Origin: an uncultured Bacilli bacterium
GTDB taxonomy: Bacteria; Bacillota_I; Bacilli_A; RF39; UBA660
Assembly: GCA_947629325.1 (NCBI GenBank)
Contig: CANRDE010000001.1
Location: forward strand, 4,028-68,027
Direction of reading: 5' to 3'
DNA: 64,000 nt
In this document: piece by piece, positions 30,746 to 51,986 of the stretch
Layout: each line of letters begins with the position of its first letter
How positions within the stretch are numbered: the first letter of the stretch is position 1
The notes under the pieces: generated by a model
The model's database searches: none
Told to the model about the DNA's origin: nothing
What the model saw: only the letters and a program-made list of their open reading frames with translations
Position numbers and translations under genes: made by a program

Positions 30746-32833
30746 TTATTTTCCTTTCTTTAATCCTTTATAATTTTTTAAAAATTTCTTAATACCAAAT
30801 CTTTTATTAAATGCCACACTGACAAATCGCTCATCAACTTCAACTACTACCCCTCTTCCAAATGATAAATGATTTACAACATCTCCACTATGATAATCCT
30901 CATTATCTTCGCTATATAATAATTCTTTATTTATTTTCTTTTTCTCTTCTGTTTTGGCAATATTTGATTCCAGATATTCATTAGCTATCTCATTAATAAA
31001 ACGAGAAGGCGGATTAATCATATCTTTTCCATAAAGCATTCGAACTTTGGCATTGGTCAAATACAATCTTTCTTTGGCCCTCGTTATACCAACATAACAG
31101 AGTCTTCTTTCTTCCTCAATACCATTTTCTTCATTATAAGCATTAGAATGAGGCATTAAACCTTCTTCCATTCCTACCATAAAAACTACTTTAAATTCTA
31201 ACCCTTTTGCAGAATGAAAAGTCATTAAAGTAATGGTATCAGCATCGGCTTGATGTTCAGTAATATCAGAAATTAAACTAATTTCATCTAAAAAATCCTG
31301 TAAATTAACACTACCGGTTACATTTTGGTAACTTTCGGTAATACTTCTAAATTCCATTAAATTTTCTAATCTTAATTCCCCTTCTAAAGTTTGCTCTTTA
31401 GTAATTTCTTCTTTAATTCCAGTTTTTATTAATACTTCATCAATCAGTTCTGTTAATGATAAAGATTCGGATTCTTTCGTTAATGCTTCAATAATGTTTT
31501 TAAATTCTAATTCTTTGCCTTTATTAATTTTACTATACATAGAAGTATTATCTTCTTTAGCAGCTAATTCAATATTTTCGATAGTCTTAGTGCCAATGCC
31601 TCTTTTAGGCTCATTAATAATACGTTTTAAAGCTATATCATCATCATGATTAGCAATTAACTTTAAATAACTTATTAAATCTTTAATCTCTTTACGTTTA
31701 TAGAAATAAAAACTACCTACTACTTTATAAGGAAAATTATTTTTAATCATTGCTTCTTCATAAATCCGCGACTGAGCATTAGTACGATAAAAAATAGCTA
31801 TATCGCTCTTATTATACCCTAAATTTAATAAATCTTTTATTTCATTTATAACAATATTTACTTCTTGTTGGCCATCATTAGCTCTTAAATATTTAACTTT
31901 TACGCCTTCGCCTAATTCACTATATAAATTAACATCTTTTCTTTCTACGTTATTCTTAATAACAGAATTAGCAGCGTTTAATATATTAGTTGTACTGCGA
32001 TAATTTTGGTTTAACACAATAACATTAGCATCAGGATAATCTTTTTCGAAATTTAAAATATTTTTATAATTGGCTTGCCTAAAACCATAAATGGCTTGAT
32101 TTTGATCTCCGACAACAAAAATATTGCGATATTTTTGACTTAATAATTTTACTAACTTATATTGAACTTCATTGGTGTCTTGATATTCGTCTATTAAAAT
32201 ATATTGATATTTGTCTTGATAATGTTCTAATATATCTTTGTTTTTAATAAATAAATCAACTGGCAACTTTAGTAAATCATCAAAATCAACAACATTATTT
32301 TTCTTTAGTACCTTTTGATATTCATAATAGACTTGCATCGCTATTTTTTCTGGATCAGATAAAAATAATCTCGTTATTTCAGCATCACTTAGCATTTCGT
32401 TTTTAATAAAGCTAATTCGATTACGAATATAAGAAGGCGATGTAATTTTAATATCATAGCCTAAATCTTTCATTATTTTTTTTATTATACTTAAAACATC
32501 TTCGGAATCTAAAATGGTAAAACTTTTAGTTAGCCCTAGAGATTCATAATTTTCTTTAATAATTCTTAAACCAAAAGAATGAAATGTACCAACAAAAGCA
32601 TAATTATCATTAACTATTTTACCAACTCTTTCTTTCATTTCTTTGGCGGCTTTATTAGTAAAAGTAATAGCTAAAATATTACCACTATAAATACCATTAT
32701 CAATTAAATATGCTATTCTAGTTGTTAAAACCTTTGTTTTGCCCGAACCAGCTCCAGCTACTACTAAACAAGGTCCATTAATATGTGTTACAGCTTCTTT
32801 TTGTTCTTTGTTTAAGTTGTTTAAATATTCCAT
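30746..32833 (-). CDS. pcrA: ATP-dependent DNA helicase PcrA/UvrD family
   Basis: Walker A GAGSGKT, DEYQD motif and UvrD helicase motifs. Confidence 0.85.
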   Translation of the reverse strand: MEYLNNLNKEQKEAVTHINGPCLVVAGAGSGKTKVLTTRIAYLIDNGIYSGNILAITFTNKAAKEMKERVGKIVNDNYAFVGTFHSFGLRIIKENYESLGLTKSFTILDSEDVLSIIKKIMKDLGYDIKITSPSYIRNRISFIKNEMLSDAEITRLFLSDPEKIAMQVYYEYQKVLKKNNVVDFDDLLKLPVDLFIKNKDILEHYQDKYQYILIDEYQDTNEVQYKLVKLLSQKYRNIFVVGDQNQAIYGFRQANYKNILNFEKDYPDANVIVLNQNYRSTTNILNAANSVIKNNVERKDVNLYSELGEGVKVKYLRANDGQQEVNIVINEIKDLLNLGYNKSDIAIFYRTNAQSRIYEEAMIKNNFPYKVVGSFYFYKRKEIKDLISYLKLIANHDDDIALKRIINEPKRGIGTKTIENIELAAKEDNTSMYSKINKGKELEFKNIIEALTKESESLSLTELIDEVLIKTGIKEEITKEQTLEGELRLENLMEFRSITESYQNVTGSVNLQDFLDEISLISDITEHQADADTITLMTFHSAKGLEFKVVFMVGMEEGLMPHSNAYNEENGIEEERRLCYVGITRAKERLYLTNAKVRMLYGKDMINPPSRFINEIANEYLESNIAKTEEKKKINKELLYSEDNEDYHSGDVVNHLSFGRGVVVEVDERFVSVAFNKRFGIKKFLKNYKGLKKGK

Positions 32834-36927: not shown

Positions 36928-37362
36928 CTAATTATCTAAATCTAATTTTTCAACTTCATCAAGTTGTTCTTCCAAAATATTCTTATATCTTCTTTTATAT
37001 TGGGCTACTTGCCTTCTTAAATTATTAGCAGCTTCTTCTACTTTATCTACCTTGAGTAAAGCATTATTTATTATTCTTGAAGCATTCTTTTTAGCATCTT
37101 CAACGATAAGTTTAGATTCTTCTATAGCAGATTTTTTTATATTTTGAGAAGATTCTTCTGCAATAACTAAGGCTCTATTTAATGTTCGTTCTAAATTTTT
37201 ATAATGGTCCAATTCTTTTTTTAAATTAGCAATTTCTTGATCGCGAGCTTTTAAATTATTTAGCATACTTTCATATTCAGTTGTTACATTTTTAACAAAA
37301 GAATTTACTTCATTTTTATTATAACCCGGAAAACTATTATTAAATTTTCTCAATTCACTCAC
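36928..37362 (-). CDS. divIVA: DivIVA-domain cell-division protein
   Basis: N-terminal F-x-x-x-F-PGYNKNEVNSFV motif followed by coiled coil. Confidence 0.8.
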   Translation of the reverse strand: MSELRKFNNSFPGYNKNEVNSFVKNVTTEYESMLNNLKARDQEIANLKKELDHYKNLERTLNRALVIAEESSQNIKKSAIEESKLIVEDAKKNASRIINNALLKVDKVEEAANNLRRQVAQYKRRYKNILEEQLDEVEKLDLDN

Positions 37363-37374
37363 AACCGTTTCTTA

Positions 37375-37785
37375 TTACCACTCTAATTCGTCTTCAGCTC
37401 CACTTTTGGCTTTATCATTATCATCAGTAATCTTACCTTGTACATTAACATTTTTAGGGGTGCATAAATAAATTCCCACACCTATTTTTTGCATATTTCC
37501 ACTTATAGCATAAATACATCCACTTAGAAAATCAATTATTCTTTTAGCTTGACTAGAAGTAACTCTCTTTAAATTAACAACAACACTGTTTCGAGATTTT
37601 AAATGATCCGCAATAGCCTGTGCTTCAGAAAAAGAACGAGGTTCTAATAAAATCATTTTATTACCTACTTTATCGGCTTCTTTCAAAGCTTCTGCTTCAG
37701 AAACTGCATAATATTCATCTTCTGTACCAATTACTTCACTATCTTCATCATTTTTAAATAAATCTTTTAATTTACCGAGTGCCAT
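37375..37785 (-). CDS. sepF: cell division protein SepF
   Basis: Conserved SepF C-domain (LLEPRSFSEAQAIADHLKSRNSVVVNL...IDFLSG). Confidence 0.8.
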   Translation of the reverse strand: MALGKLKDLFKNDEDSEVIGTEDEYYAVSEAEALKEADKVGNKMILLEPRSFSEAQAIADHLKSRNSVVVNLKRVTSSQAKRIIDFLSGCIYAISGNMQKIGVGIYLCTPKNVNVQGKITDDNDKAKSGAEDELEW

Positions 37786-37841: not shown

Positions 37842-39218
37842 TTACAAGACTATTTTACTTTCAATGTAATCTTTTATCTCTTCTATATTAATAGTTACTT
37901 GTTTCATTGTATCTCTATCTCTAATTGTTACCGTATTATTATTTAGACTATTGTCATCAACTGTTATGGCAAAAGGAGTTCCGATAGCATCACATCTGCG
38001 ATATCTTTTGCCAATGCTTCCGGCTTCATCATAAGTGCAACTAAAATATTTGCTCAACATATTGTATATATCGTTAGCTTTTTCCGCATGAAACTTTTTA
38101 ACCAATGGTAAAATAGTGGCTTTTATCGGTGCTAAAGCAGGTTTAATTTTTAAAACTAATCTTTCCTCATCATCAACTACTTCCTTTTGATAAGCATCAG
38201 TTAAAATACTCAAAAAAATTCGATCGACACCTACCGCCGGTTCAATTACATAAGGCAAATATTTTTCATTGGTCTCGGGATCTAAATAACGCAAATCTTC
38301 GCCGGAATGTTTCATATGAACCGCTAAATCATAAGAAGTTCGATCAGCTATTCCCCATAGCTCTCCCCAACCAAAAGAATAATTATATTCTATATCCGTA
38401 GTTGCCTTACTATAAAAAGTTAATTCTTCTTTAGCATGATCTCTAAATCTTAAATTCTCTTCTTTTAAACCTAATAATTTTAAAAAATCCCAACAATAAT
38501 TTTTCCAAAATCCAAACCATTCTAAATCAGTATTAGGTTTGCAAAAAAATTCTAACTCCATTTGTTCAAATTCCCTAGTTCTAAAAATAAAGTTTCCGGG
38601 AGTAATTTCATTTCGAAAGCTTTTGCCATATTGTCCTACTCCAAAAGGAACTTTAGCTCTCATACTTCTTTCAATATTTTTAAAATTAACAAATATACCT
38701 TGAGCAGTTTCCCCTCTTAAATATAATTTACTTTTAGCATCTTCCGTAACTCCCTGACTAGTTTCAAATAACAAATTAAACTTTCGAATATCAGTAAATT
38801 CTTTACTACCACATTTAGGACAACCAATTCCTTTTTCTTTAATTAATTTAATTAGTTCTTCTTCACTTAAACCATCGCCGGTAATTTTTCCTTTGGTAAA
38901 ATCTTCAATTAATTTATCAGCCCGATAACGACTTTTACATTGTTTACAATCGATAAGGGGGTCAGAAAATGAAGCAACGTGACCTGAGGCTATCCAAACT
39001 TTAGGATTCATTAAAATGGCAGAATCTAAGCCATAATTATAAGGGCATTCTTGAATAAATTTCTTCCACCATAAATTTTTAATATTTTGCTTTAATAAAA
39101 CACCTAAAGGACCATAATCCCAAGCATTGGCAAGCCCTCCATATATTTCACTTCCTTGAAAAACAAATCCATATTGTTTTGCATAATTTACTAATTCTTC
39201 CATTGTAACTTTTTCCAT
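37842..39218 (-). CDS. glyQS: glycine--tRNA ligase (alpha2 class II type)
   Basis: Class II motifs and 458 aa. GGAGAAAT RBS. Preceded by a T-box leader. Confidence 0.9.
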
Positions 39219-39369: not shown

Positions 39370-40011
39370 CTATTTTATTTTATCAACCAATTCTGTTAAT
39401 TTCTTCGCTTCATTACTATTGATTTTTATATATTTTAAATAACAATCTGAGCATAGTGGAACATATTCATATTCTTCTTTTGTTCCATCATCTATAACCA
39501 AATCTGGTCCAACATCAGTAAATTTATCATTTTCTTTTCGCGCATTAAATATAGCTTTTTTACCACATCTACATAAACTACTACTACCAATTTCTTCAAC
39601 ATGATCAGCCATTGCAAATATTTGGGAAATACCATCACTAAAAATATTACCTTTAAAATTACTTCTTAAACCATAACAAATAACCGGAACATTTATTAAA
39701 TGAGCAATCATCCATAATTCTTTTATTTGTTTAGCATTCAATAACTCTACTTCATCAACTAAAATAGCTTTGGCAGTATAATAGATTTGATAATATTTTT
39801 CTTGGAATAATGTTTCATCTTCTTTTAAACAAATGTCTGCTTTTCTACTCATTCCATTTAAAGATAAAATATTATCTTTACCTTTAGTATCTTTAGTAGA
39901 TTTTATTAATACTACTTTAAAATTATTTTCTTCATAGCTATAAATAGTTTGTAAAATATTAATTGTTTTACCACCATTCATTGCACTATACTTATACACC
40001 ATATCAGCCAT
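39370..40011 (-). CDS. tdk: thymidine kinase
   Basis: P-loop SAMNGGKT and a C-terminal Zn ribbon CRCGK...CSDCY. Confidence 0.85.
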   Translation of the reverse strand: MADMVYKYSAMNGGKTINILQTIYSYEENNFKVVLIKSTKDTKGKDNILSLNGMSRKADICLKEDETLFQEKYYQIYYTAKAILVDEVELLNAKQIKELWMIAHLINVPVICYGLRSNFKGNIFSDGISQIFAMADHVEEIGSSSLCRCGKKAIFNARKENDKFTDVGPDLVIDDGTKEEYEYVPLCSDCYLKYIKINSNEAKKLTELVDKIK

Positions 40012-40116
40012 AACATCACCCTAATTAAAGTATAAAATAAATTATTTTTTATTTCAACCAAAAAACATTATTTACATTTTAACCTACAATTACCTTCAGC
40101 ATCTTTTTAAACATAA

Positions 40117-41310
40117 TTATTTTTGTTCTTTAGAATTTTTTTTAAGTGTTAAGTTTGGAATTATTTTTCGAGTATTTATTTCTTCATTTGGCATATTTTC
40201 TACTACTTTTATTAAATCAGTAACAAACTGATCTTTATTATTTTCTTTTTTATTGATTATTCCTTCTATTAAATCATTAAAATGAGGATTGAAAGAAATA
40301 CATTGATTATTTTCTAAATATATTTCTAGTTTTAATTCTCTACCTAATATCATTTTAGAAAGATTATTAAAAGTTTTATACAAACTTAAATTTTTTAAAA
40401 CTAAACTCTTTAAATATTCATACATTCTTTCTTTTTCATCTTCAGAAGTTAAGACTTGTTTTAATGCTAATAAATCTTCTTTACTTCCCGCAATAATTTT
40501 AACTAATTTAAACGCTACTTCTAAATTTTCTCCTAACAAAAGATACGTGCTTCTTAAATCTATAATATCTTCTATACCATTTATTGCTTTGGCCATTTCT
40601 AATGCGGCATCATAATCCACTATTGGTCCTTTTTCATAATACCTTAAAATACATTTGGCATTAAATTCTTGAGGAGATTCTTTTAAAATTTGAACAAATG
40701 ACAGAATAAAATTTAAATCAACCCTATTTTCGTTATGCAAAAAAACACTTATTAAAAATATACTAATATATTCAGAATTAAATTCTTGTTTAGTATCTTT
40801 TAAGATATTAGCCAATAATAAACTTATACCTGATTTTAAAATATTTTCATTTATTAAAATGTTACTAATTTTATAACCATTAAAACTACCTTTTACAGTA
40901 CTAACTATTTTAGCCCCCTCTAAAGCAACACCATAATTTATTGCATTAACATCAGTTAATATTTCACATGCTGCTATGGCATTTGCCTCTAAATCTATAG
41001 TATTTATTATTTTTGCTCCTTCTAATGCTATATTTTCCCTAATCGCTTTTTTGTTTAATAAAATATTAACTACATAGTCTCTTTGCATAGAATTACTATT
41101 TTGGAAAATGTTTAAAGCTTCGCATATTTCATCTACTGTTTTATATGGAGAAATAGCAATTTCAATTCCATCTCTTATAAGAGATTCATCTAAATTTTTT
41201 ATTTTAATTAATATTCTATAACTTTTTTGTAATAATTTTTTTAATTTAGTGGGAGGAATATGAAGACCATTAAGTTTATATAGTAATGATAACATTAACT
41301 CTTTTTTCAT
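40117..41310 (-). CDS. repeat protein, paralog A (397 aa) of a three-gene tandem family
   Basis: Contains ~35-aa repeats with core G(I/V)ALEGAKI(I/V)..(S/T)....FN. N- and C-terminal domains are shared with 42757..43767. Confidence 0.6.
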   Translation of the reverse strand: MKKELMLSLLYKLNGLHIPPTKLKKLLQKSYRILIKIKNLDESLIRDGIEIAISPYKTVDEICEALNIFQNSNSMQRDYVVNILLNKKAIRENIALEGAKIINTIDLEANAIAACEILTDVNAINYGVALEGAKIVSTVKGSFNGYKISNILINENILKSGISLLLANILKDTKQEFNSEYISIFLISVFLHNENRVDLNFILSFVQILKESPQEFNAKCILRYYEKGPIVDYDAALEMAKAINGIEDIIDLRSTYLLLGENLEVAFKLVKIIAGSKEDLLALKQVLTSEDEKERMYEYLKSLVLKNLSLYKTFNNLSKMILGRELKLEIYLENNQCISFNPHFNDLIEGIINKKENNKDQFVTDLIKVVENMPNEEINTRKIIPNLTLKKNSKEQK

Positions 41311-41434
41311 TATTTATCTCCTTATCTTAGCCAGTATTATATCATATTTTTTTATTAGTAAACATTTAGTCCCCTCTAATTTTAGTATAAAATAAATTAA
41401 AAATTACTACAATCAAAAATTAAAGAAAAGTTAA

Positions 41435-42745
41435 TCATTTTTCCGTATTATCTGATTTTCTGTTTTCTCGGATTAATTTTAAAGCTATATCACAAGAAGA
41501 AATATTTTGATCCGGCATATTTTCAACTACTTTTATTATATCAGATATTGCATCACTATTAGTTTTCCTACTTGCTTTTGATTCTTGATCTAATCTTATT
41601 TCTTCATTCAACAAAGATTTGGCTAAGATATTAGCAGTTAAAATAAAGTGAGGATTTTCTAAAACTAAATTTCTTAAATATAAATATATTTCTGTCCTCT
41701 TTTCGCTAGAATTTAATTCGCTTTTTAAATTATCTAAATCCTTTTTTGATCCCATTAATATTTTTATCATATTAAAAGATAAAAGAGACTCTTGAGACAA
41801 TAAATATACATAATTATAATTTACTTGGTGAAATTCAAACATTCTAGCCGTCTTTAATACCTCCATCGGATTAATAATGGAAAGCATTTTAAAAAGTTTA
41901 ACAACACAGCGAGCTGCATTTGGATTTAAACAATTATTAACAATTTTAACCCCTTCCAAAGCAATACCACTGGTGATAGCCATATTATTTCTTAAAATAT
42001 CATACCCGCACTCTGCATTATATGGATTCAAAGATTTTGCTATAATTTGAGCCGCATCTAAAGCAATTCCCGCTTTTATTAAATTTTCATTATTTAAAAT
42101 ATTTTTGATAAAAAAGGCATTAAATTCATTTTGAGACCGACTAATTATTTTAGCCCCAGAAATAGCTAAAGCAGCTTTATTCATTTTTTCATCAATTAAA
42201 AAATAATAAATATATTTTGCTTGAAATTCTTCTGAAGCTTGACTAAGTATTTTAACTCCTTCCATATTGATAGTATTAACTTCTTTAAATAACAAATATT
42301 TTAAAAGGTAATAAGCATTAGATATATTAATAGTTTCATTAATTAATTTAGCATACTTTAAAGCAATTCCCGCCTGCAAAAACGATTTGTTTTGTAAAGC
42401 TTCAGTAACAAATCGCGCATTAAAAGTTTGCTTAGATGATCTTATTAGATAAGCCCCTTCTAATGCTAGTCCCATTTTTATAATATTTTCATCTTGCAAG
42501 ACGCACCTTATATAACATCTATTAGTTGTGGATTGCTTTAATATTCGCAAAGCTTCTAAAATAGTATTAATATTATCATAAGGGGCTAAGATTATTTTAA
42601 CACTATCTTCTATTAGGGACTCTTCCATGTTATTTAATTCTCTTAATAATAATTCTTCCTTAGTTAGCAAAATCTCGACATCGTCAACATTAATATGTAA
42701 TTTTTGCATCTTTTTTAACAAAGACAAAATTATTTCTTTTTTCAT
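41435..42745 (-). CDS. repeat protein, paralog B (436 aa), five repeat units
   Basis: Same architecture as paralog A but more divergent. Repeats GLALEGAYLI, GIALKYAKLI, ALAISGAKII, GIALDAAQII, GIALEGVKIV. Confidence 0.6.
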   Translation of the reverse strand: MKKEIILSLLKKMQKLHINVDDVEILLTKEELLLRELNNMEESLIEDSVKIILAPYDNINTILEALRILKQSTTNRCYIRCVLQDENIIKMGLALEGAYLIRSSKQTFNARFVTEALQNKSFLQAGIALKYAKLINETINISNAYYLLKYLLFKEVNTINMEGVKILSQASEEFQAKYIYYFLIDEKMNKAALAISGAKIISRSQNEFNAFFIKNILNNENLIKAGIALDAAQIIAKSLNPYNAECGYDILRNNMAITSGIALEGVKIVNNCLNPNAARCVVKLFKMLSIINPMEVLKTARMFEFHQVNYNYVYLLSQESLLSFNMIKILMGSKKDLDNLKSELNSSEKRTEIYLYLRNLVLENPHFILTANILAKSLLNEEIRLDQESKASRKTNSDAISDIIKVVENMPDQNISSCDIALKLIRENRKSDNTEK

Positions 42746-42756
42746 ATAAACCTTTT

Positions 42757-43767
42757 TTAATTACCTTGATTATCAAAAGGATTTTTAAGAGTTAATTGGA
42801 GCTCATCAGGCATATTAATAGATGCTTTTATTAAGTTTGCAACATCAGGATTAATAGGAGTAATATATCTAATAAATTTTGCTTCGATAATTATTTCTCT
42901 ACCTAATATAATTTTAGAAAGATTATTAAAAGTTTTATACAAATTTAAATTTTTTAAAACTACACTTTTTAAATATTCATACATTCTTTCTTTTTCATCT
43001 TCAGAAATTAAGACTTGTTTTAAAGCTATTAAATCTTCTTTTCTTCCTGCAATAATTCCAATTAATTTAAACGCTACTTCTAAATTTTCTCCTAACAAAA
43101 GATACGTGCTTCTTAAATCTATAAAATCTTCTATACCATTTATCGCTTTGGCCATTTCTAATGTGGCATCATAATCCATTATTGGCCCTTTTTCATAATA
43201 CCTTAATATACATCTAACATTAAATTCTTGAGGAGATGCTTTTAAAATTTGAACAAATGACAGAATAAAATTTAAATCAATATTATTTTCATTAGTCTCA
43301 AAAACTTTTGTTAAAAATTCACATATATAACTAGAATTAACACTTTGTTTAGTATCTTTTAAGATATTTGCCACCATTAAACCAATTCCAGATTTTAATA
43401 TATTTACATTAGTTAAAATACGACTAATATGACTACCATTAAAACTATCTTTTACAGTACTAATTATCTCAGCTCCTTCTAAAGCTATTCCTTTCTTAAT
43501 TGCTTCTTTATTTAATAAAATCATAACTACGTAGTCCCTTTGCATAGGATCACTATTTTGATAAATATTTAAAGCAGTAATTATTTCCTCGGTAGTTTTA
43601 TATGGAGAAGTGGCAATTGCAATTCCTTCTTCTATAAGAGGCTCATCTAAATTATTTATTTTAATTAATACTTCACTACTTCTTTGCATTAATTTTTTTA
43701 ATGTAATAGGTGAAAAATTATAACCTTGCAATTTATTTAATAAAGATACTATTAATTCTTTTTTCAT
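42757..43767 (-). CDS. repeat protein, paralog C (336 aa)
   Basis: Near-duplicate of paralog A; long identical nucleotide runs are visible. Only 11 nt separate it from paralog B. Confidence 0.6.
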   Translation of the reverse strand: MKKELIVSLLNKLQGYNFSPITLKKLMQRSSEVLIKINNLDEPLIEEGIAIATSPYKTTEEIITALNIYQNSDPMQRDYVVMILLNKEAIKKGIALEGAEIISTVKDSFNGSHISRILTNVNILKSGIGLMVANILKDTKQSVNSSYICEFLTKVFETNENNIDLNFILSFVQILKASPQEFNVRCILRYYEKGPIMDYDATLEMAKAINGIEDFIDLRSTYLLLGENLEVAFKLIGIIAGRKEDLIALKQVLISEDEKERMYEYLKSVVLKNLNLYKTFNNLSKIILGREIIIEAKFIRYITPINPDVANLIKASINMPDELQLTLKNPFDNQGN

Positions 43768-43836
43768 TATTTTTCTCCTTTTTTCCGCTAATATATTATA
43801 GCAATAATCGTTTTATTGCAAGAAAAAACTCTATTT

Positions 43837-44592
43837 CTAGAGTTTAGCGATTGTTTTTAAAAAATCTTTACTTTTTAGATATAATCCCGTATAGTCATCA
43901 TAATAATTAATTAAGAAATTATTTATTTCGTGGATAATATTATCTTTAATTGCTAATTTAGATATGCTTTTAATATCAACTAAATAATACATATTAATAA
44001 CCTTAATTACGCTTATTGGCATAATTCTTTCCCCTTGATAACAATTTTTACAAATGAGACCACCTTTTTCGCTAGTAAGAGTTACAATATCTTTTTTATT
44101 ACCACAAACAATACAACTAGTAAGATTTAATCCTACCCCTAAATAATCTAGTAGTTTAACCTCTAAAATATTAGTAATAACCATAGGATTTAATCCTTCT
44201 TCTATTTTTAATAAAGAATAGATAAAATCATTATAAATTTCCGCATTCGGCGATTGTTTTAATATTTGGCTAACTAAATCAATTAAATAAGTAGCATAAC
44301 TAATTAAGGTAATATCACTTTTTATTTTTTTTAAGGGATTTAAAATATCCACTGATACTAAAGGCGATAATTTGCCTTTTTTATAATAAATATTGAATAT
44401 TCCATAAGTAAGTTTCATGGTAGTACTTCTTAAATGTGATTTAATATTCATTGCTCCTTTAGCCATAATTCCTATTATGCCATATTCTTTTGTAAAAACA
44501 TTAATAATTTTAGAAGTATCTCCATAAGGAGTTTCTTGCATTATTATTCCTTCTACTTTTATAATTGCATTAGTTGTCACTTCATCACCCAA
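43837..44592 (-). CDS. recO: DNA repair protein RecO
   Basis: N-terminal OB region EGIIMQETPYGDTSKIINVFTKEYG and a C-terminal Zn-finger CIVCG...CKNC. Confidence 0.85.
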   Translation of the reverse strand: MGDEVTTNAIIKVEGIIMQETPYGDTSKIINVFTKEYGIIGIMAKGAMNIKSHLRSTTMKLTYGIFNIYYKKGKLSPLVSVDILNPLKKIKSDITLISYATYLIDLVSQILKQSPNAEIYNDFIYSLLKIEEGLNPMVITNILEVKLLDYLGVGLNLTSCIVCGNKKDIVTLTSEKGGLICKNCYQGERIMPISVIKVINMYYLVDIKSISKLAIKDNIIHEINNFLINYYDDYTGLYLKSKDFLKTIAKL

Positions 44593-44720: not shown

Positions 44721-45602
44721 TTATTCATAATCAAAAAATCCTAGTTCTTTTAAATATCTTTCCTTATCTTTCCAATTTTCAATAACTTTAACATATAATT
44801 CCAAATAAACTTTTTTGTTGACTAGGTCTTCTAAATCTTTGCGAGCTAAAATGCCGATTTTTTTTAACATTTCCCCACCAGAACCAATAATAATTTTTTT
44901 AATATTAGGTTTATCTACAATTATATCAACATAAATACTAACTAAATCTTTTTTTTCTTCAATCTTGGTGCAATGACAAGTAATGGAATGAGGAATTTCT
45001 TCCATCGTATTTTGTAATAGCTTCTCTCTTACTAGTTCTCCTGCTCTAAAAGATAATGTACTAGTGGTGATGGTTTCATTACCATAATATTTAACTGTAT
45101 CTTTTAAATATTTTTTTATAACTGTAATTAAATGAGATACGTTATCATCTTCTTTGGCAGAGACTGGTACTATTTCAGCAAAAGAATAATCTTTATATTC
45201 ATTAATTGCTAAAATTAGAGTTTCATTAGAAACCTTATCTATTTTATTTATTACTAAAATAACCGGAATACTACTATCTAATAAGTTATCCATTAGATAT
45301 TTATCACCTTTACCAATTCCGGATTCAATATCAACTACTAATAAAATCAAATCAACATCTTTTGTCAAAGCATAAGCTTGTTTATTTAAAACTTTTCCTA
45401 ATTTATTTAAAGGCTTAGATATTCCCGGGGTATCTACAAATATTATTTGATAATCTTCTTCATTATATATCCCTTCAATTAAATTTCGGGTTGTTCCGGC
45501 CACATTAGATGTAATGGCCACTTTATGATTGATAATACTATTTAAAAGGGTACTTTTGCCAACATTAGGCCGACCAACTATACTTACAAAACCACTCTTC
45601 AT
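44721..45602 (-). CDS. era: GTPase Era
   Basis: G1 motif GRPNVGKST, G3 motif DTPG, G4 motif NKID, plus a C-terminal KH domain. Confidence 0.9.
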   Translation of the reverse strand: MKSGFVSIVGRPNVGKSTLLNSIINHKVAITSNVAGTTRNLIEGIYNEEDYQIIFVDTPGISKPLNKLGKVLNKQAYALTKDVDLILLVVDIESGIGKGDKYLMDNLLDSSIPVILVINKIDKVSNETLILAINEYKDYSFAEIVPVSAKEDDNVSHLITVIKKYLKDTVKYYGNETITTSTLSFRAGELVREKLLQNTMEEIPHSITCHCTKIEEKKDLVSIYVDIIVDKPNIKKIIIGSGGEMLKKIGILARKDLEDLVNKKVYLELYVKVIENWKDKERYLKELGFFDYE

Positions 45603-45611
45603 ATAATCACC

Positions 45612-46016
45612 TTAAAATACTTTGATAAATAATTCAATAAAATAGGGAACAAAAATAATAAGATTTACTATAGTGGCTAAAACGGACATAATTCCTGTTG
45701 CGGCTGAGCCACAATCCTTAGCAATTTTAGCATATTCATTATATTCTTGAGTAACCATATCCACTGTAGCTTCAATCGCGGTATTTATTAATTCAACAAT
45801 ACTAATTAACGCTAAACTGCCAAATGATATAACCCATTCTAAAAAGTCAATATCAAATATTACCCCTAAAATAATAATAATACATCCCATAATCGCTACA
45901 AGAATAAAGCTCGATTCATTTTTAAAACAATAAGATAATCCTTGCATTGAATATTTGCATTTATTTAAAAAATTTTTAATTAAACTATTACTCTTTTTTT
46001 GTTCTTTCATCTTCAT
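45612..46016 (-). CDS. dgkA: diacylglycerol/undecaprenol kinase DgkA family
   Basis: ELINTAIEATVD and KDCGSAA motifs in a ~130-aa protein with 3 TM helices. Confidence 0.75.
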   Translation of the reverse strand: MKMKEQKKSNSLIKNFLNKCKYSMQGLSYCFKNESSFILVAIMGCIIIILGVIFDIDFLEWVISFGSLALISIVELINTAIEATVDMVTQEYNEYAKIAKDCGSAATGIMSVLATIVNLIIFVPYFIELFIKVF

Positions 46017-46437
46017 TCAACATCTTCTCCTGCAACTCAAACATTATTTCTTCCTCTTCTTTGTTCATATGATCATAACCAAGTAAATGTAAAAGGCCAT
46101 GACAAGTTAAAAAGGCTAGTTCTCTTACTTCACTATGACCATATTCTTTAGCTTGAGCAATCATTCTAGGAATACATATATATATTTCTCCTAAAAATCG
46201 CATATTATTATACACTACTTTATCATTATCTTCAAATGCAAATGAAATTACATCAGTAATTCTATCAATATTACGATAATTTTTATTTAAATATTGGATT
46301 TTTTCGTTATCAACAAATACGATACTAAATGTAGCATTTTTAACTTTCTCATGTTTTAAAGTGCGTTTAATTAAATCATCTAAATAGCCATAATCTTTAC
46401 TATAACCATATTCATTTGTTATTTTATAATCTATCAT
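45988..46437 (-). CDS. ybeY: rRNA maturation endoribonuclease YbeY
   Basis: HxxxHxxGxxH zinc motif, seen as HGLLHLLGYDH. Confidence 0.9.
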   Translation of the reverse strand: MIDYKITNEYGYSKDYGYLDDLIKRTLKHEKVKNATFSIVFVDNEKIQYLNKNYRNIDRITDVISFAFEDNDKVVYNNMRFLGEIYICIPRMIAQAKEYGHSEVRELAFLTCHGLLHLLGYDHMNKEEEEIMFELQEKMLNEDERTKKE

Positions 46438-47063
46438 TTAAATATAACTCCCCAATACCCCAATATATATACGGCAAATAACAATATTAATACAAGGGAA
46501 ATAATATTATAAAATAATTCACTTTTAAAAATATCAGGTAAGTGACGATGAATAGCACTTAGACCAATGTATAGCAAATAACCACCTACACCACCAATTA
46601 AATTTAAAATTATATCATCAATATCAAATGATCTACCAATTTGCAATTGAACAAATTCTACGGCAATACTAGTCATTAAAGTTGTTATAATTATAGGCCA
46701 GATTTTTTTCGGATTAACATAAACTCCTATTAAATAACCAAATGGTAAAAAAATTAATATATTGCCAAAAACATTATAATTAAACATTTGAGTACCAAAT
46801 TTATACCGCATTATTTCTGAGAAAGGAATAATATTTACTCCTCCACTACTATTTATCTCCGTCATAGTTAAGATTTCAAATAAAAGCCAAATATAAATTA
46901 TAGAAATCAAATAACTTAATTCTTTATATAAACAAAATCTTTCACGATGATTACGCAAATAAAAAAATCGGATTAAGACAATTGCTACTATAAAAACCAC
47001 TAACATGGGCCAAATATTATTGAACACTTTCTGGATTAGATTGGACATTTGGAACCTCCTCAA
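46434..47063 (-). CDS. VanZ-family membrane protein
   Basis: Four TM helices. Motifs NIIPF and RSFDIDDIILNLIGGVGGY are typical of VanZ-like proteins. Confidence 0.65.
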   Translation of the reverse strand: MRRFQMSNLIQKVFNNIWPMLVVFIVAIVLIRFFYLRNHRERFCLYKELSYLISIIYIWLLFEILTMTEINSSGGVNIIPFSEIMRYKFGTQMFNYNVFGNILIFLPFGYLIGVYVNPKKIWPIIITTLMTSIAVEFVQLQIGRSFDIDDIILNLIGGVGGYLLYIGLSAIHRHLPDIFKSELFYNIISLVLILLFAVYILGYWGVIFK

Positions 47064-48201
47064 CTTTATCTAAGATACCAATATTTTCTTTCGTTACTAT
47101 AAATATCTCTAAGTATATTGTACTATCATTTACCTCTTTTTTCAAAACTTTTTTTAATAATATTTCTTCCTCTTCGTCTAAAGTTAATTTTATCTTTTCT
47201 AAAGCCAGTTTTAGGCCCTTATTATAGGCCTCTTCTTCCGTTAAATAATTAGTATCTAAAATGTATTCTTTTTCCTTTACTAAATTAATTTCAAAATCAT
47301 TTAATTTATATAAATTAGTAATCTCTTCTTTTTTATTTTTTATTCGGCTTTTAAAAATAGGAAACTTGTTTTCGTTAATTACTACATTAAAATTATATCG
47401 ATTTTTACCAGTATATTTAGTTTTAACTTCTTTAAAAGGAACCGTTATATTAACTGTATACCAAACTTCTCCATATATTTCGCCACTAGCACAAACCGTA
47501 TTTTTTATTTCTTCGTTATGAGTAATAGTACCTGATAAAATAATATCACCTTTTAAAACATAGTCATTTATTTCTTTTAAGGCTACGCCTCTATAAATAT
47601 TTAGACTGGTAATTTTAGCATCTGTACTAGCTATAATATTACAATTTTTATAATTTGTTGTTTCTTCTTTAACCGTTTTTTCGGTGACATTTACTATTAA
47701 AACTAAACCGCTATACTTTATCTCTAACCACTCTAAAGTATTTTTGTTATCATTTAATATTTTATTAACAATTTTTTCAATTTCTGAATGTTTCTTTTTT
47801 AAAGTTAATTTTTTAATTCCATTTTTTTCCAATTCTTTCATTACTAATTTTTGGACATTTTTATTTGGACTTTTTATTTCAATTTTAAAAATTAAATTAT
47901 TTACTAAAAATAATAAAATTATACTTAAAATAACTCCTACGGAAAAAAAGATATATTTTTTTATTATATCTAATATTTTTCGAAAACCAGAATTGCCAAT
48001 AATTTCTGTTTTATAACTAACTAAATATTTTTTGATTTTTTTATAATCAGAATAGGAAGTCTTAATTAAAATATCATTTTTATTTTTTTTATTATCATAT
48101 ACTGTAACTCCAATATCATTTAATTTGATTAATAAATTATAATAACTTTGAGCATCTATTTTAATCCAAATGATTTTTTCTCTATTCATAATTAAACTCA
48201 A
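47017..48201 (-). CDS. yqfD: sporulation protein YqfD (stage IV)
   Basis: Size and single-TM architecture fit YqfD. It is immediately downstream of and overlapping yqfC. Confidence 0.8.
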   Translation of the reverse strand: MSLIMNREKIIWIKIDAQSYYNLLIKLNDIGVTVYDNKKNKNDILIKTSYSDYKKIKKYLVSYKTEIIGNSGFRKILDIIKKYIFFSVGVILSIILLFLVNNLIFKIEIKSPNKNVQKLVMKELEKNGIKKLTLKKKHSEIEKIVNKILNDNKNTLEWLEIKYSGLVLIVNVTEKTVKEETTNYKNCNIIASTDAKITSLNIYRGVALKEINDYVLKGDIILSGTITHNEEIKNTVCASGEIYGEVWYTVNITVPFKEVKTKYTGKNRYNFNVVINENKFPIFKSRIKNKKEEITNLYKLNDFEINLVKEKEYILDTNYLTEEEAYNKGLKLALEKIKLTLDEEEEILLKKVLKKEVNDSTIYLEIFIVTKENIGILDKVEEVPNVQSNPESVQ

Positions 48202-49531: not shown

Positions 49532-49945
49532 CTATTTAAATAACTCTAAAATAAATTGCCAAATAGTTTGTTTACCATAATAAATTTCCACATCTCCTAT
49601 TTCATTATTATAAAAATCTTTTTCTAAAACTAAAAATATATCTTGATAGATAATATTTTTATCTAAACTATATTTTTCATATGAGTTAATGGTATACTCT
49701 GTTTTAGTACCATTGAAAGTCAAAGTATTTTGTTTTTTTATTTTATCAGAGAGTCTATTTTCTATTTGTATATGTAATAAATGACTTTCATAAATTCCAT
49801 AACATTTAATCTTTTTATCAATATAAAAGAAGTTGGCAATCACAATGAAGAAAACAATAAATGAAACTCCTATTACTAAAAGATAAATATATGGCCTTTG
49901 AACTAAATTTCTAAGTTTATAATAATTAATTTTGAAGTATTCCAT
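49532..49945 (-). CDS. small single-TM protein (137 aa); candidate immunity or truncated secretion-accessory protein
   Basis: N-terminal TM helix YIYLLVIGVSFIVFFIVIANFFYI. Overlaps the 3' end of the ABC transporter and sits directly upstream of the two peptide genes. Confidence 0.45.
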   Translation of the reverse strand: MEYFKINYYKLRNLVQRPYIYLLVIGVSFIVFFIVIANFFYIDKKIKCYGIYESHLLHIQIENRLSDKIKKQNTLTFNGTKTEYTINSYEKYSLDKNIIYQDIFLVLEKDFYNNEIGDVEIYYGKQTIWQFILELFK

Positions 49946-51986
49946 TTTGAACTCCTATGTCAATAATTTTGCTAAAACTTTTAGTTTGATTTTTATGAGA
50001 AATATAAATTATTGTTTTATCATTAAAATAATTTTTTATATTTTTTATGATCTTGTTTTCTAATTTAAAATCCACTTCACTTAACGCTTCATCCAAAATA
50101 ATAATATTGGCTTTCTTTAAAAGGCCTCTGGCTAAAATTATTCTTTGTTTTTCGCCACCTGAAACGTTCTGAGAATTTGGTTCAAGCAAAGAATTAAAAC
50201 GAAGTGTTTTTTTAGCTACAATCTCCTCAATACAGCAAATTTGACATATATCATTAAACAATTGCTCTTCAACTTCTCTATCAATTAAAATGTTTTCTTT
50301 GATAGTTCCAGTAAAAAGTTCTTCATTTTGGGATACATATAAAATATTATTTCTGATTGTTCCTATATCTATATCTTTGATGTTTTGATTACCAATATAT
50401 ATCTCCCCTTCATTTGAAACATATTCCTTATAAATTAGTTTACAAATGGTACTTTTTCCCGCTCCAGAAGGTCCATTTAACAAAACATGATCTCCCTGTT
50501 TGATTTGCAAAGTCAAATTTTTTAATATGCTTTTATAATTATTATATGAATAGTAGACATTAGCAAAAACAATATCACCATCTAAATAACATCCTTTATC
50601 ATCAATATTTTCTTCTTCAATATTTATAAATTCGGTTAACTTTGTAAAAGTTGCTTTAATAAAATTATATTTAGGTAACAAGCTAATAATATTACGCACA
50701 GGATCAATACAATAACCAAGAATAATATTAAATGTGAATAAATCAATGATAGATAAATTGCCTTGATAAATATTCCAAAACCCACAAGAATTAATCAAAA
50801 AGAAACAAAGTTCTAATAAGAAATCTTTACCTAAATTGGTTAGGTTGAAATATTTATTAAAATTATAAGTATTAAATAAGTATTTAGATAAACACTTTTC
50901 TATTTTTTCTAATATAATGTTATTTATATTTAAATTTTTAATACTATCTAACATCGTAATGTCTTCTACTATCATACTATTAAAATTGGTTTGATAATTA
51001 ATATTTTCTAAAATTCTTTGATATAAACTCTTACTAACCAAAAAACCATATAAAACGTATAAAACAATAAAGAGAAATAAAATAAAAGACAAGTTTTTAT
51101 TTATTATAAATAAAATAACTACAGTTATAAGTATCATTAAAGAGTTTACAAGATAAGAAACAAATATTTCGGAAAACAAGCTTTTTATATTAGCTAATTC
51201 ATCAATCCTTGTTACTATTTCTCCTACACTTCTTGTCTTGATACTATTAGAAGGAAGGTAAAAAATATGATGTAAAAACTCTGGATACAAATAAACATCA
51301 ATTAAATTACCCAAATGATTTTCATAATATTCTCGAATATATAAACTTAAAATTTTTAATAAAGTAAATATTGCAAATATTAAAATGAGCCATTTAAAAT
51401 ATTTATAATTTTCATTTAATAAATTGCTTCCTACTTTCAAATAATAACTACAAATTATAGCGATAATAGTCCAAATTATACTACTCATAACTATTTTCAT
51501 TATTAGAAACTTTTCCTGATTTAATATTTGTAAAAATAAGTTATTTATAGTAAGACCTTTGTCCATTTTAATAATTTTACCACGCGGTTTTACTAAAATA
51601 AGATGACCAGTAAATAAACTATTAAAAATAGTTAAAGATATTTTTTTATTTCCAACACTTGGATCCATTAAATATACAATGTTGTTTTTTACCTCTTTAA
51701 CTACAACAAAATGTTCTAAACCATTCTCTAAAGTTAAATGAGCTATTAAAGGAAATTCCAATTCACTTTTTGTAATGTCGCGCTCCAAAATCCCCAATGA
51801 ATCAAATCCCCATTTTTTAAAAGCATTTACAATATGGTAAGCATTAGTTCCATTTTTATCGGTAAAAGTATCTTCTCTTAATTTTTCTAGAGTCACATAA
51901 CCATTATAAAAAATAAATAACCATTGCATACAACATATACCACAATCTTTCAAATCTTTTTGTATAACAGGTTTAACTTTCATCAT
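49926..51986 (-). CDS. bacteriocin-processing ABC transporter with N-terminal C39 peptidase domain
   Basis: C39 catalytic motifs QKDLKDCGICC (Cys), LEHFVVV (His) and LMDP (Asp). Six-TM domain. Walker A GPSGAGKST, signature VSGGEKQR and Walker B IIILDE. Confidence 0.9.
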   Translation of the reverse strand: MMKVKPVIQKDLKDCGICCMQWLFIFYNGYVTLEKLREDTFTDKNGTNAYHIVNAFKKWGFDSLGILERDITKSELEFPLIAHLTLENGLEHFVVVKEVKNNIVYLMDPSVGNKKISLTIFNSLFTGHLILVKPRGKIIKMDKGLTINNLFLQILNQEKFLIMKIVMSSIIWTIIAIICSYYLKVGSNLLNENYKYFKWLILIFAIFTLLKILSLYIREYYENHLGNLIDVYLYPEFLHHIFYLPSNSIKTRSVGEIVTRIDELANIKSLFSEIFVSYLVNSLMILITVVILFIINKNLSFILFLFIVLYVLYGFLVSKSLYQRILENINYQTNFNSMIVEDITMLDSIKNLNINNIILEKIEKCLSKYLFNTYNFNKYFNLTNLGKDFLLELCFFLINSCGFWNIYQGNLSIIDLFTFNIILGYCIDPVRNIISLLPKYNFIKATFTKLTEFINIEEENIDDKGCYLDGDIVFANVYYSYNNYKSILKNLTLQIKQGDHVLLNGPSGAGKSTICKLIYKEYVSNEGEIYIGNQNIKDIDIGTIRNNILYVSQNEELFTGTIKENILIDREVEEQLFNDICQICCIEEIVAKKTLRFNSLLEPNSQNVSGGEKQRIILARGLLKKANIIILDEALSEVDFKLENKIIKNIKNYFNDKTIIYISHKNQTKSFSKIIDIGVQNGILQN

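What the first reader, a model, noticed from the sequence alone, without database searches (positions are those of the whole stretch)
40117..43767. Tandem triplet of paralogous genes encoding a 'GIALEGAKII' ~35-aa repeat protein family, inserted between recO and tdk
Three consecutive minus-strand genes (397, 436 and 336 aa) share a common N-terminal domain (MKKEL(I/M)LSLL.K(L/M)…), a central array of 2 to 5 degenerate ~35-aa repeats (consensus N.N(I/L)(I/L)K(A/S)GIALEGAKI(I/V)..S...FNA..I..IL) and a shared C-terminal region (…MYEYLKS(L/V)VLKNL.LYKTFNNLSK). The repeat has alternating small and hydrophobic residues and resembles a solenoid or helical-repeat scaffold. I do not recognise it as a named family. 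In Bacillus-type synteny recO is followed closely by glyQS, so this ~3.7 kb block looks like lineage-specific inserted cargo.
Basis: seen in the sequence. Interest (0 to 1): 0.7.

Follow-up and report, generated by a model that had tools for sequence, protein, structure and literature searches.

The report
Unnamed 34-residue helical-repeat protein family, triplicated
Three neighbouring genes in an uncultured low-GC gut bacterium encode a real, previously unnamed family of proteins built from stacked 34-residue three-helix units. The fold is predicted with high confidence, but the function is still unknown; a cytoplasmic protein-binding scaffold is my best guess.

Summary
Three intact minus-strand genes lie between recO and tdk: C (43767-42757, 336 aa), B (42745-41435, 436 aa) and A (41310-40117, 397 aa). 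All three share an ~80-aa N-terminal helical domain, tandem repeats, a degenerate helical C-terminal region and a related tail. The repeat period is exactly 34 aa, not ~35.

No model in Pfam, NCBIfam, PHROGs or PADLOC matches them, and no PDB sequence does. An exhaustive HMMER scan of 1.84 billion representative proteins found only 51 related clusters. All come from low-GC (23-33%) gut MAGs or metagenomes labelled uncultured Bacilli, 'Tenericutes' or Clostridium sp. CAG:302. The only name any source gives is 'hypothetical protein'.

The genes are stand-alone with sigma-A-like promoters. They have no conserved neighbour, no signal peptide, no phage copies and no GC anomaly. They evolve fast, by whole-repeat indels, tandem duplication and gene conversion. 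Function is inferred only.

The parts
42757..43767 (-). Gene C (336 aa). N-terminal domain aa 1-82 (43522-43767). Two clear 34-aa repeats aa 83-150 (43318-43521). A degenerate helical C-terminal region follows. The tail is shortened and lacks the basic cluster.
   Evidence: ORF; repeat register; 65% identity to A; tail.
41435..42745 (-). Gene B (436 aa), the most repeat-rich paralogue. N-terminal domain aa 1-81 (42503-42745). Six HMM-detected repeats lie within aa 82-285 (41891-42502). The C-terminal tail reads ...IKVVENMPDQNISSCDIALKLIRENRK. Its start is 11 nt after the stop of C, so it is probably co-transcribed with C.
   Evidence: The exact protein is also present in NCBI, Logan and ENA assemblies.
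40117..41310 (-). Gene A (397 aa). N-terminal domain aa 1-82 (41065-41310). Three clear repeats aa 83-184 (40759-41064). The degenerate solenoid continues to about aa 322. A small beta-hairpin spans aa 328-340. The tail is low-confidence in the model.
   Evidence: AlphaFold2 model m00b1de192b62: pLDDT 87.4, pTM 0.78.
43795..43821 (-). Sigma-A-type promoter candidate for the C-B unit: TTGCAA, 15 nt, TGcTATAAT (extended -10). The RBS AAGGAGA lies 7 nt before the ATG.
   Evidence: Sequence read; pattern scan. This is a consensus match only; no expression data are available.
41336..41344 (-). Extended -10 box (TGaTATAAT) upstream of gene A, followed by the RBS AAGGAGA. A appears to have its own promoter.
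   Evidence: A TATAAT box about 30 nt before the start codon recurs at 11 of 16 independently sampled family genes.
40332..40631 (-). Gene-conversion tract in A. Its partner in C is 42891-43190: 300 nt at 94% identity, against about 77% elsewhere.
   Evidence: repeat family D1. In one search, dS is 0.10 in this region versus 0.45-0.55 in the N-terminal domain and repeats.
42891..43190 (-). Gene-conversion tract in C, the partner of 40332-40631 in A.
41376..41419 (-). The spacer between B and A holds a copy (80% identical) of the 44 nt immediately upstream of tdk (40021-40064). This is a footprint of the tandem duplication. It carries an RBS and a 7-codon remnant ORF (MFTNKKI).
   Evidence: D4; sequences.
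40021..40064 (-). The tdk upstream region (TTGAAA, 17 nt, TATACT promoter-like site). It is the second copy of the duplicated spacer.

Best explanation
A, B and C are functional members of a previously undescribed, narrowly distributed family of cytoplasmic alpha-solenoid proteins. Each has an ~80-aa helical N-terminal cap, then 2-13 tandem 34-residue units. The unit consensus is VLTNENAIKAGIALEGAKIINESKNEFNAEYASD, and each unit forms three helices: short a1 at positions 5-9, a2 at 13-21 and a3 at 26-36. More degenerate helical hairpins follow, and most members end in an acidic-then-basic tail of the form [DE][DE][IV][DN]xxx[LV]xK[RK][LI]x[KR].

Shown: the genes, the repeat architecture, the confident fold prediction, the taxonomic restriction, the lack of any named relative, and the mode of evolution (whole-unit indels, tandem duplication, gene conversion).

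Inferred: they act as non-enzymatic protein- or peptide-binding scaffolds or adaptors expressed in vegetative cells. The stacked repeats would present a conserved polar ridge (N4, E15, K18, N21, N28) flanked by variable surface positions (5, 6, 22, 25, 26, 30, 33, 34). The conserved C-terminal helix would be either a packing/capping element or a docking peptide. The three paralogues would then offer three different binding surfaces on one framework.
For: Real genes under constraint. The ORFs are intact with strong RBSs. A/C dN/dS is 0.36-0.53 in the N-terminal domain and repeats. Alleles are near-invariant within species, and the tail is invariant in the two abundant clusters (142 and 328 member sequences).

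No catalytic or known domain in 32 members. No signal peptide or TM segment; the N-terminus is a confident helix. The body is acidic (median net charge -7.5, pI 5.6) and the tail is basic (median +3).

The tail motif is enriched: 23 of 69 family members versus 9 of 159 control C-termini and 6 of 639 internal windows. In P0006 it is predicted as a helix at pLDDT 75-85.

The genes are stand-alone, with a TATAAT box about 30 nt upstream of the ATG in 11 of 16 loci, often a TTGACA-like -35, and no consistent sigE/K/F/G patterns.

Modularity. A and C differ by an indel of exactly one 34-aa unit. Unit number ranges from 2 to 13 across the family.
Against: No binding partner is identified. No neighbouring gene is conserved across about 30 loci, so guilt-by-association gives nothing.

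In the model of A the tail is disordered (pLDDT below 50), and C has lost the basic cluster. The tail is therefore not essential to every paralogue.

'Scaffold' is the default reading for any domain-less solenoid and is weakly discriminating. A same-habitat family of three-helix tandem repeats (pTERF) binds DNA (PMC11417379).
Confidence: 0.5

Rival explanations
1. The proteins are modular nucleic-acid binders like TALE, pTERF or PUF. Each 34-aa unit would contact one or a few bases, and the variable positions would set specificity.
Confidence: 0.12
2. The proteins are sporulation- or spore-associated structural proteins, for example coat or assembly scaffolds.
For: The hosts carry sporulation genes. 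yqfD lies 3 kb upstream in the window. Homologue P0008 sits next to spoIID, an M23 peptidase gene, spoIIID and mbl. P0006 follows a weak CotD-like gene. Several members are Cys-rich, with 10-13 Cys and Cys at repeat position 3 in 21% of units.
Against: Upstream regions show sigma-A-type -10/-35 boxes and no consistent sigE, sigK, sigF or sigG patterns. Most neighbours are unrelated housekeeping genes. The sporulation-gene neighbours are seen in only 2-3 of about 30 loci. yqfD next to the ybeY-dgkA-era-recO cluster is the ordinary Bacillus-type gene order (my own knowledge).
Confidence: 0.08
3. The proteins belong to a genetic-conflict system, such as immunity proteins for polymorphic toxins, anti-phage sensors or decoys. 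That would explain the fast evolution and tandem paralogy.
For: The syntenic orthologue P0009 is only about 26% identical to A, B and C, while the flanking RecO is 74% and TK 68% identical. Tandem paralogues occur here and in L012. There is gene conversion and mosaicism between paralogues.
Against: There are no PADLOC or PHROG hits. No toxin, nuclease, ATPase or T7SS gene is adjacent in any locus. There are no viral copies. Most genomes carry a single copy among housekeeping genes. Within-species alleles are conserved rather than hypervariable.
Confidence: 0.08
4. The ORFs are spurious or decaying, an artefact of AT-rich sequence.
For: Low-GC genomes give long chance ORFs and low-complexity matches. 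The first word-indexed search found only one homologue.
Against: There are 51 homologous clusters down to E 1e-24, confident AlphaFold2 folds, dN/dS below 1, good RBSs and promoters, and hundreds of conserved alleles in human-gut metagenomes.
Confidence: 0.01

Closest known systems
De novo designed helical repeat proteins (DHRs; FD15 'flat repeat helix-turn-helix-turn' 8ugc; DHT03 7upp; peptide-binding RPB designs 7udm/7udj)
   Different: They are artificial, with no homology (8-13% identity). Most designs have two helices per unit; this family has three. The resemblance describes the geometry and says nothing about function.
TAL effectors and TALE-likes (AvrBs3, dHax3, Bat/BurrH, MOrTL, STAR)
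   Same: They share the 34-residue period, tandem helical units, unit-number variation and a basic C-terminal region. They are the top natural Foldseek hits.
   Different: There is no RVD-type hypervariable di-residue loop and no profile similarity (HHalign 0.1%). TM-scores are about 0.2. The repeats here are acidic, there are only 2-6 units per protein in the window, the hosts are Gram-positive gut bacteria with no T3SS context, and no DNA-binding evidence exists.
pTERF (prokaryotic mTERF-like tandem-repeat DNA binders; Hu et al. 2024, PMC11417379)
   Same: Both are tandem units of about 35 aa with three alpha-helices each, in 3-11 units. Both are known only from MAGs, mostly Bacillota, from gut metagenomes.
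ARM/HEAT alpha-solenoids (e.g. PP2A A subunit, importin-alpha)
   Different: Their unit length is about 40-47 aa, not 34. Pfam ARM and HEAT models do not match. The PP2A-A superposition is poor (rmsd 12.4 A).
TPR / RNPP-type cytoplasmic receptors of Firmicutes (Rap, PlcR, Rgg, AimR)
   Same: They share the 34-residue period, a cytoplasmic location, an N-terminal helical domain followed by a repeat array, a length of 250-430 aa, and lineage-specific, fast-evolving, often tandemly duplicated paralogues.

Membership tests
TPR (Pfam clan CL0020 TPR models) | 34-aa unit made of two antiparallel helices with the consensus small/large pattern (W4, L7, G8, Y11, A20, F24, A27, P32), detectable by TPR profiles | tested here: not met
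   The period is 34 aa, but the models show three helices per unit. There is no TPR Pfam hit at E <= 1 for A, B or C, or at E <= 10 in 32 members. HHalign against consensus TPR gives probability 0.06%. The only trace is a designed-TPR PDB hit at E 0.0025, in the non-repeat C-terminal region of the A/B/C profile.
Ankyrin repeat | 33-aa unit with the TPLH motif, two helices and a beta-hairpin/loop | tested here: not met
HEAT / Armadillo | Units of about 37-47 aa (HEAT, two helices) or about 42 aa (ARM, three helices), matched by HEAT/ARM profiles | tested here: not met
TAL effector / TALE-like | 33-35-aa repeat period | tested here: met
   The period is 34 aa.
TAL effector / TALE-like | Near-identical repeats whose variation is concentrated in a repeat-variable di-residue (positions 12/13) on the loop between the two helices | tested here: not met
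   Positions 12-13 are conserved (I 54%, A 61%) and lie inside helix a2. High-entropy positions are spread over 6, 10, 22, 25, 26, 30, 33 and 34.
TAL effector / TALE-like | Detectable sequence or structure homology to TALE repeats and their right-handed superhelix | tested here: not met
TAL effector / TALE-like | Sequence-specific DNA binding | not testable with these tools
   This needs EMSA, SELEX or a bacterial one-hybrid assay.
mTERF / pTERF | mTERF motifs recognisable by Pfam or SMART mTERF models | tested here: not met
   There is no PF02536 hit in A, B, C, P0001 or any of 32 members at E <= 10.
mTERF / pTERF | Three-helix unit of about 30-35 aa | tested here: inconclusive
mTERF / pTERF | Direct homology to pTERF1 (MBQ3414883.1) | not testable with these tools
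   The sequence is not held in the paper's text or supplements, and accession look-up is not possible.
RNPP quorum-sensing receptors | TPR-type peptide-binding domain plus a cognate small secreted-peptide gene adjacent | tested here: not met
Known anti-phage defence or phage protein families | Match to PADLOC or PHROG models, or presence on viral contigs | tested here: not met
   PADLOC gives no hits. PHROG hits are all at E >= 0.009 and mutually inconsistent. The IMG/VR scan found no relative.

The most novel reading that the evidence does not exclude
The family is a natural programmable modular reader. Each 34-residue three-helix unit would recognise one element of a linear polymer, either bases of DNA/RNA as in TALE, pTERF or PUF, or residues of an extended basic peptide as in importin-alpha and the designed RPB binders. 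Specificity would be encoded at the few variable surface positions (5, 6, 30, 33, 34). Unit gain and loss plus gene conversion among tandem paralogues would retarget it. The conserved acidic-basic C-terminal helix could be the self or partner ligand. This would be a new engineerable repeat scaffold from uncultured human-gut Bacilli.
Probability: 0.1. Interest if true: 0.8.

Novelty: new variant of a known kind. Interest (0 to 1): 0.4.

Why it matters
The family adds a new, cleanly periodic natural repeat class to the alpha-solenoid repertoire: 34 residues and three helices per unit. Its geometry is closest to de novo designed repeat proteins. Canonical members have almost idealised, near-identical units and fold predictions at pLDDT about 95, which makes them attractive for structural work and as engineering scaffolds.

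Biologically, it marks a lineage-specific and apparently vegetatively expressed component of poorly known, uncultured low-GC gut Bacilli. These bacteria are prevalent in human-gut metagenomes, where hundreds of alleles are on record. The locus also shows plainly how such families evolve, through whole-unit indels, tandem duplication and gene conversion.

If the units prove to read a polymer (DNA, RNA or peptide), the family would join TALE, PUF, PPR and pTERF as a programmable binder. If it is only a scaffold, it is a solid but unremarkable new DUF-type family.

Tried and rejected
- Named repeat families (TPR, ANK, HEAT, ARM, mTERF, Sel1 and others): no Pfam or NCBIfam hits for A, B or C, or for 32 family members even at E <= 10.
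- PDB sequence profiles: only a marginal designed-TPR hit (E 0.0025) outside the repeats, and noise.
- Phage or defence origin: PHROGs and PADLOC were negative, and IMG/VR was negative.
- Horizontally acquired 'cargo': rejected. There is no GC or skew anomaly, and a single family gene occupies the same slot in a related genome.
- Conserved operon partner: clustering ORFs from 16 loci found only generic ABC-transporter and AMP-binding families shared between loci. Pfam on the immediate neighbours gave unrelated housekeeping genes.
- Domain fusions: apparent ribosomal-L4 fusions (P0068, P0070, P0072) and a PBP fusion (L035) look like chimeric low-coverage assemblies. One ends in adaptor-derived sequence.
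- Secretion: there is no signal peptide, and no double-glycine leader despite a C39 ABC exporter 6 kb away.
- Sporulation promoters: simple sigE, sigK, sigF and sigG pattern scans of 17 upstream regions gave one isolated match.
- FtsZ-C-terminal-peptide-like reading of the tail (SepF and DivIVA genes are nearby): the spacing of the motif differs. I dropped this as a recollection-based resemblance only.
- The afdb50 fold library was unavailable, so predicted-structure relatives could not be surveyed.
- The first genome-collection scan with A alone, and an over-diverse alignment, both failed. A tighter alignment worked.
- Three full-text literature searches found no description of this family.
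Full report
OBSERVATION

Upstream on the coding strand lie era (44721-45602) and recO (43837-44592; Pfam RecO_N and RecO_C). Downstream lie tdk (39370-40011; Pfam TK, E 5e-28) and a single-chain glycyl-tRNA synthetase (37842-39218). A and C are 65% identical (E 4e-151). B is 29-33% identical to either (E 1e-25 to 1e-41).

The GIALEGAKII-type motif recurs at exactly 34-residue intervals in all three proteins. A repeat HMM iterated on the family detects 4, 6 and 3 units in A, B and C. Across 52 family proteins it detects 198 units, and 116 of 144 successive spacings are exactly 34. The consensus unit is VLTNENAIKAGIALEGAKIINESKNEFNAEYASD. The period is 34 aa rather than ~35. The 'shared C-terminal region' is strongly shared only by A and C.

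ARE THEY REAL GENES?

Each has a strong RBS (AAGGAG). C and A are each preceded by an extended -10 box (TGnTATAAT), and B starts 11 nt after C's stop, so C-B looks like one transcription unit and A another. Nei-Gojobori dN/dS between A and C is 0.53 in the N-terminal domain and 0.36 in the repeats. Two ENA metagenome assemblies carry 100% identical DNA.

WHAT FAMILY?

Pfam, NCBIfam, PHROGs and PADLOC give no significant hit for A, B or C or for a canonical homologue. Scanning 32 family members against Pfam at E <= 10 gives no TPR, ANK, HEAT, ARM or mTERF match. The only recurrent hit is a sub-threshold 24-residue match to DUF4090 in 5 members. PDB sequence searches with family profiles return only marginal or noise hits.

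An exhaustive HMMER search of 1.84 billion cluster representatives with A found 51 proteins at E <= 1e-3, of which 21 were at E <= 1e-10. A profile search of the 5.8-billion-protein collection found 40, none with a source-given name. The only name recovered from cluster members is 'hypothetical protein [Bacillota bacterium]'. The few precomputed PF00573 (ribosomal L4) labels belong to chimeric assemblies; one ends in adaptor-derived sequence.

Species-representative genomes with homologues are MAGs labelled uncultured Bacilli (human, rabbit, mouse gut), an uncultured 'Tenericutes' MAG and Clostridium sp. CAG:302. JGI/ENA metagenome hits are human-gut contigs. All loci have 23-33% GC. IMG/VR holds no relative.

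ARCHITECTURE AND FOLD

Family members (121-726 aa) share four parts. First is an N-terminal ~80-aa helical domain (MKK..L..LL.KL...DE.IL..L..L....A..II..Y....I.EAL.IL). Then come 2-13 units of 34 aa, then a variable and often degenerate-repeat region. Most end in a tail of the form [DE][DE][IV][DN]xxx[LV]xK[RK][LI]x[KR]. A strict regular expression for that tail matches 23 of 69 family C-termini, against 9 of 159 control C-termini and 6 of 639 internal windows. A basic cluster in the last 15 residues occurs in 34 of 69 family members against 23 of 159 controls.

AlphaFold2 with a 33-sequence family alignment gives an all-alpha solenoid for A, with pLDDT 87.4 and pTM 0.78. It runs to about residue 322 and is followed by a small beta-hairpin and a low-confidence tail. 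The canonical homologue P0006 gives pLDDT 94.6 and pTM 0.86. Each unit forms a short helix (positions 5-9), a 9-residue helix (13-21) and an 11-12-residue helix (26-36). The C-terminal basic motif forms a helix at pLDDT 75-85.

CONTEXT AND EVOLUTION

GC content and skew across the block match the flanks. A related organism (RecO 74% and TK 68% identical) has a single family gene (P0009, 393 aa) in the same recO-tdk slot, yet that gene is only about 26% identical to A, B or C. The slot is therefore ancestral to this lineage, the gene evolves much faster than its neighbours, and the triplet arose locally.

Several footprints of that history are visible:
- A and C differ by an indel of exactly one 34-aa unit.
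- A 300-nt tract is 94% identical between A and C (dS 0.10 versus about 0.5 elsewhere), which indicates gene conversion.
- The 3' end of A and the spacer after it resemble those of B (72-80% identity).
- The B-A spacer contains a copy of the tdk upstream region with a 7-codon remnant ORF.

Another tandem pair (388 + 430 aa) occurs in L012/L013. Most other loci hold one copy.

Across about 30 loci the neighbours are unrelated housekeeping genes: truA, ackA, proS, an AMP-binding enzyme, tmcAL-like, HAD, UDG, NUDIX, TatD, spoIID, ABC transporters. No partner is conserved. Upstream regions of 11 of 16 sampled genes have a TATAAT box about 30 nt before the ATG, frequently with a TTGACA-like -35 and a preceding terminator-like hairpin. 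Sporulation-sigma patterns are essentially absent. Within abundant human-gut species the protein is well conserved and the tail is invariant (clusters of 142 and 328 member sequences).

MECHANISM (INFERRED)

The proteins have no signal peptide or TM segment, and the N-terminus is a confident helix. They have no catalytic domain. The body is acidic (median net charge -7.5, pI 5.6) and the tail basic (median +3).

The most economical reading is a vegetatively expressed cytoplasmic scaffold or adaptor. The stacked units would display a conserved polar ridge (N4, E15, K18, N21, N28) bordered by variable positions (5, 6, 22, 25, 26, 30, 33, 34), and this surface would bind a protein or peptide. The C-terminal helix would act as a capping or packing element or as a docking peptide. 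I put this at about 0.5.

Four rivals remain:
- A TALE/pTERF-like nucleic-acid reader (about 0.12). For it: the same period, the weak TALE hits, the basic tail, and the same-habitat pTERF precedent in PMC11417379. Against it: acidity, no RVD-like pattern, few units and no mTERF or TALE profile match.
- A spore-associated structural role (about 0.08). For it: hosts with yqfD, spoIID and spoIIID nearby, and Cys-rich members. Against it: sigma-A-type promoters and inconsistent neighbourhoods.
- A conflict or immunity role (about 0.08). For it: fast evolution and tandem paralogy. Against it: no toxin or defence neighbours, no PADLOC or PHROG hits, and no viral copies.
- Spurious ORFs (about 0.01), which the evidence above refutes.

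The remaining probability is 'something else'.

NOVELTY AND SCORE

This is a genuine, unnamed family, best described as a new variant within the known kind 'alpha-solenoid tandem-repeat proteins'. It is interesting to repeat-protein and gut-microbiome specialists for three reasons: the near-idealised 34-aa three-helix unit whose closest structures are designed proteins, prevalence in uncultured human-gut Bacilli, and a textbook picture of modular evolution. No surprising function is demonstrated. Interest is 0.4. The most novel reading not excluded is a programmable modular reader of DNA, RNA or peptide (probability about 0.1, interest 0.8 if true).

Noticed in passing
window 31046-31147 (-): Rfam match above the gathering score to RF03531 (n00280, 'Clostridioides difficile sRNA included into helicase gene'): 70.6 bits, E 5e-10. 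It lies inside the 695-aa ORF at 30746-32833.
   Followed up: no
window 49532-51986 (-): A peptidase-C39 / ABC bacteriocin-type exporter (686 aa) overlaps a 137-aa ORF with no Pfam match. It may be a peptide or bacteriocin export locus about 6 kb from the triplet. A, B and C have no double-glycine leader.
   Followed up: partly
window 47017-48201 (-), 45988-46437, 45612-46016, 44721-45602: The Bacillus-type cluster yqfD (stage IV sporulation protein, Pfam E 4e-59), a VanZ-like gene, ybeY, dgkA, era and recO is conserved. This suggests the host is, or descends from, an endospore former.
   Followed up: partly
window 36928-37785 (-): sepF and a divIVA-family gene sit immediately downstream of glyS and are followed by cdsA and rseP. 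Cell-division genes are here detached from a dcw/ftsZ context.
   Followed up: no
window 41360-41383 (-), B-A spacer: The spacer holds a 7-codon remnant ORF (MFTNKKI) with its own RBS (AGAGGGG). It lies next to a copy of the tdk upstream region and looks like a scar of the tandem duplication rather than a peptide gene.
   Followed up: partly
P0068, P0070, P0072 (public protein clusters); L037: Database proteins fuse the N-terminal half of ribosomal protein L4 (…[25 protein letters not shown]) to family repeats at a shared 'GGIA' junction. P0072 ends in adaptor-derived 'VSYTHLTLPTNSRV'. These look like metagenome assembly chimeras, not real domain fusions.
   Followed up: partly
L035 5394-7691 (+): On a 2.3x-coverage human-gut contig, the first ~160 residues of a family protein run in frame into a TM helix and a penicillin-binding-protein transpeptidase. 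It is either a chimeric assembly or a deletion fusion.
   Followed up: no
L018 3208-5244 (+): This is the largest array seen: a 679-aa family member with 13 HMM-detected 34-aa units in an 'uncultured Bacilli' MAG, next to an ABC-transporter ATPase gene.
   Followed up: no
L012 160-1638 (+): A HerA/DUF87-type ATPase gene and a dCMP/MafB19-like deaminase gene lie a few kb upstream of the tandem family pair in L012. This was seen in one locus only.
   Followed up: no
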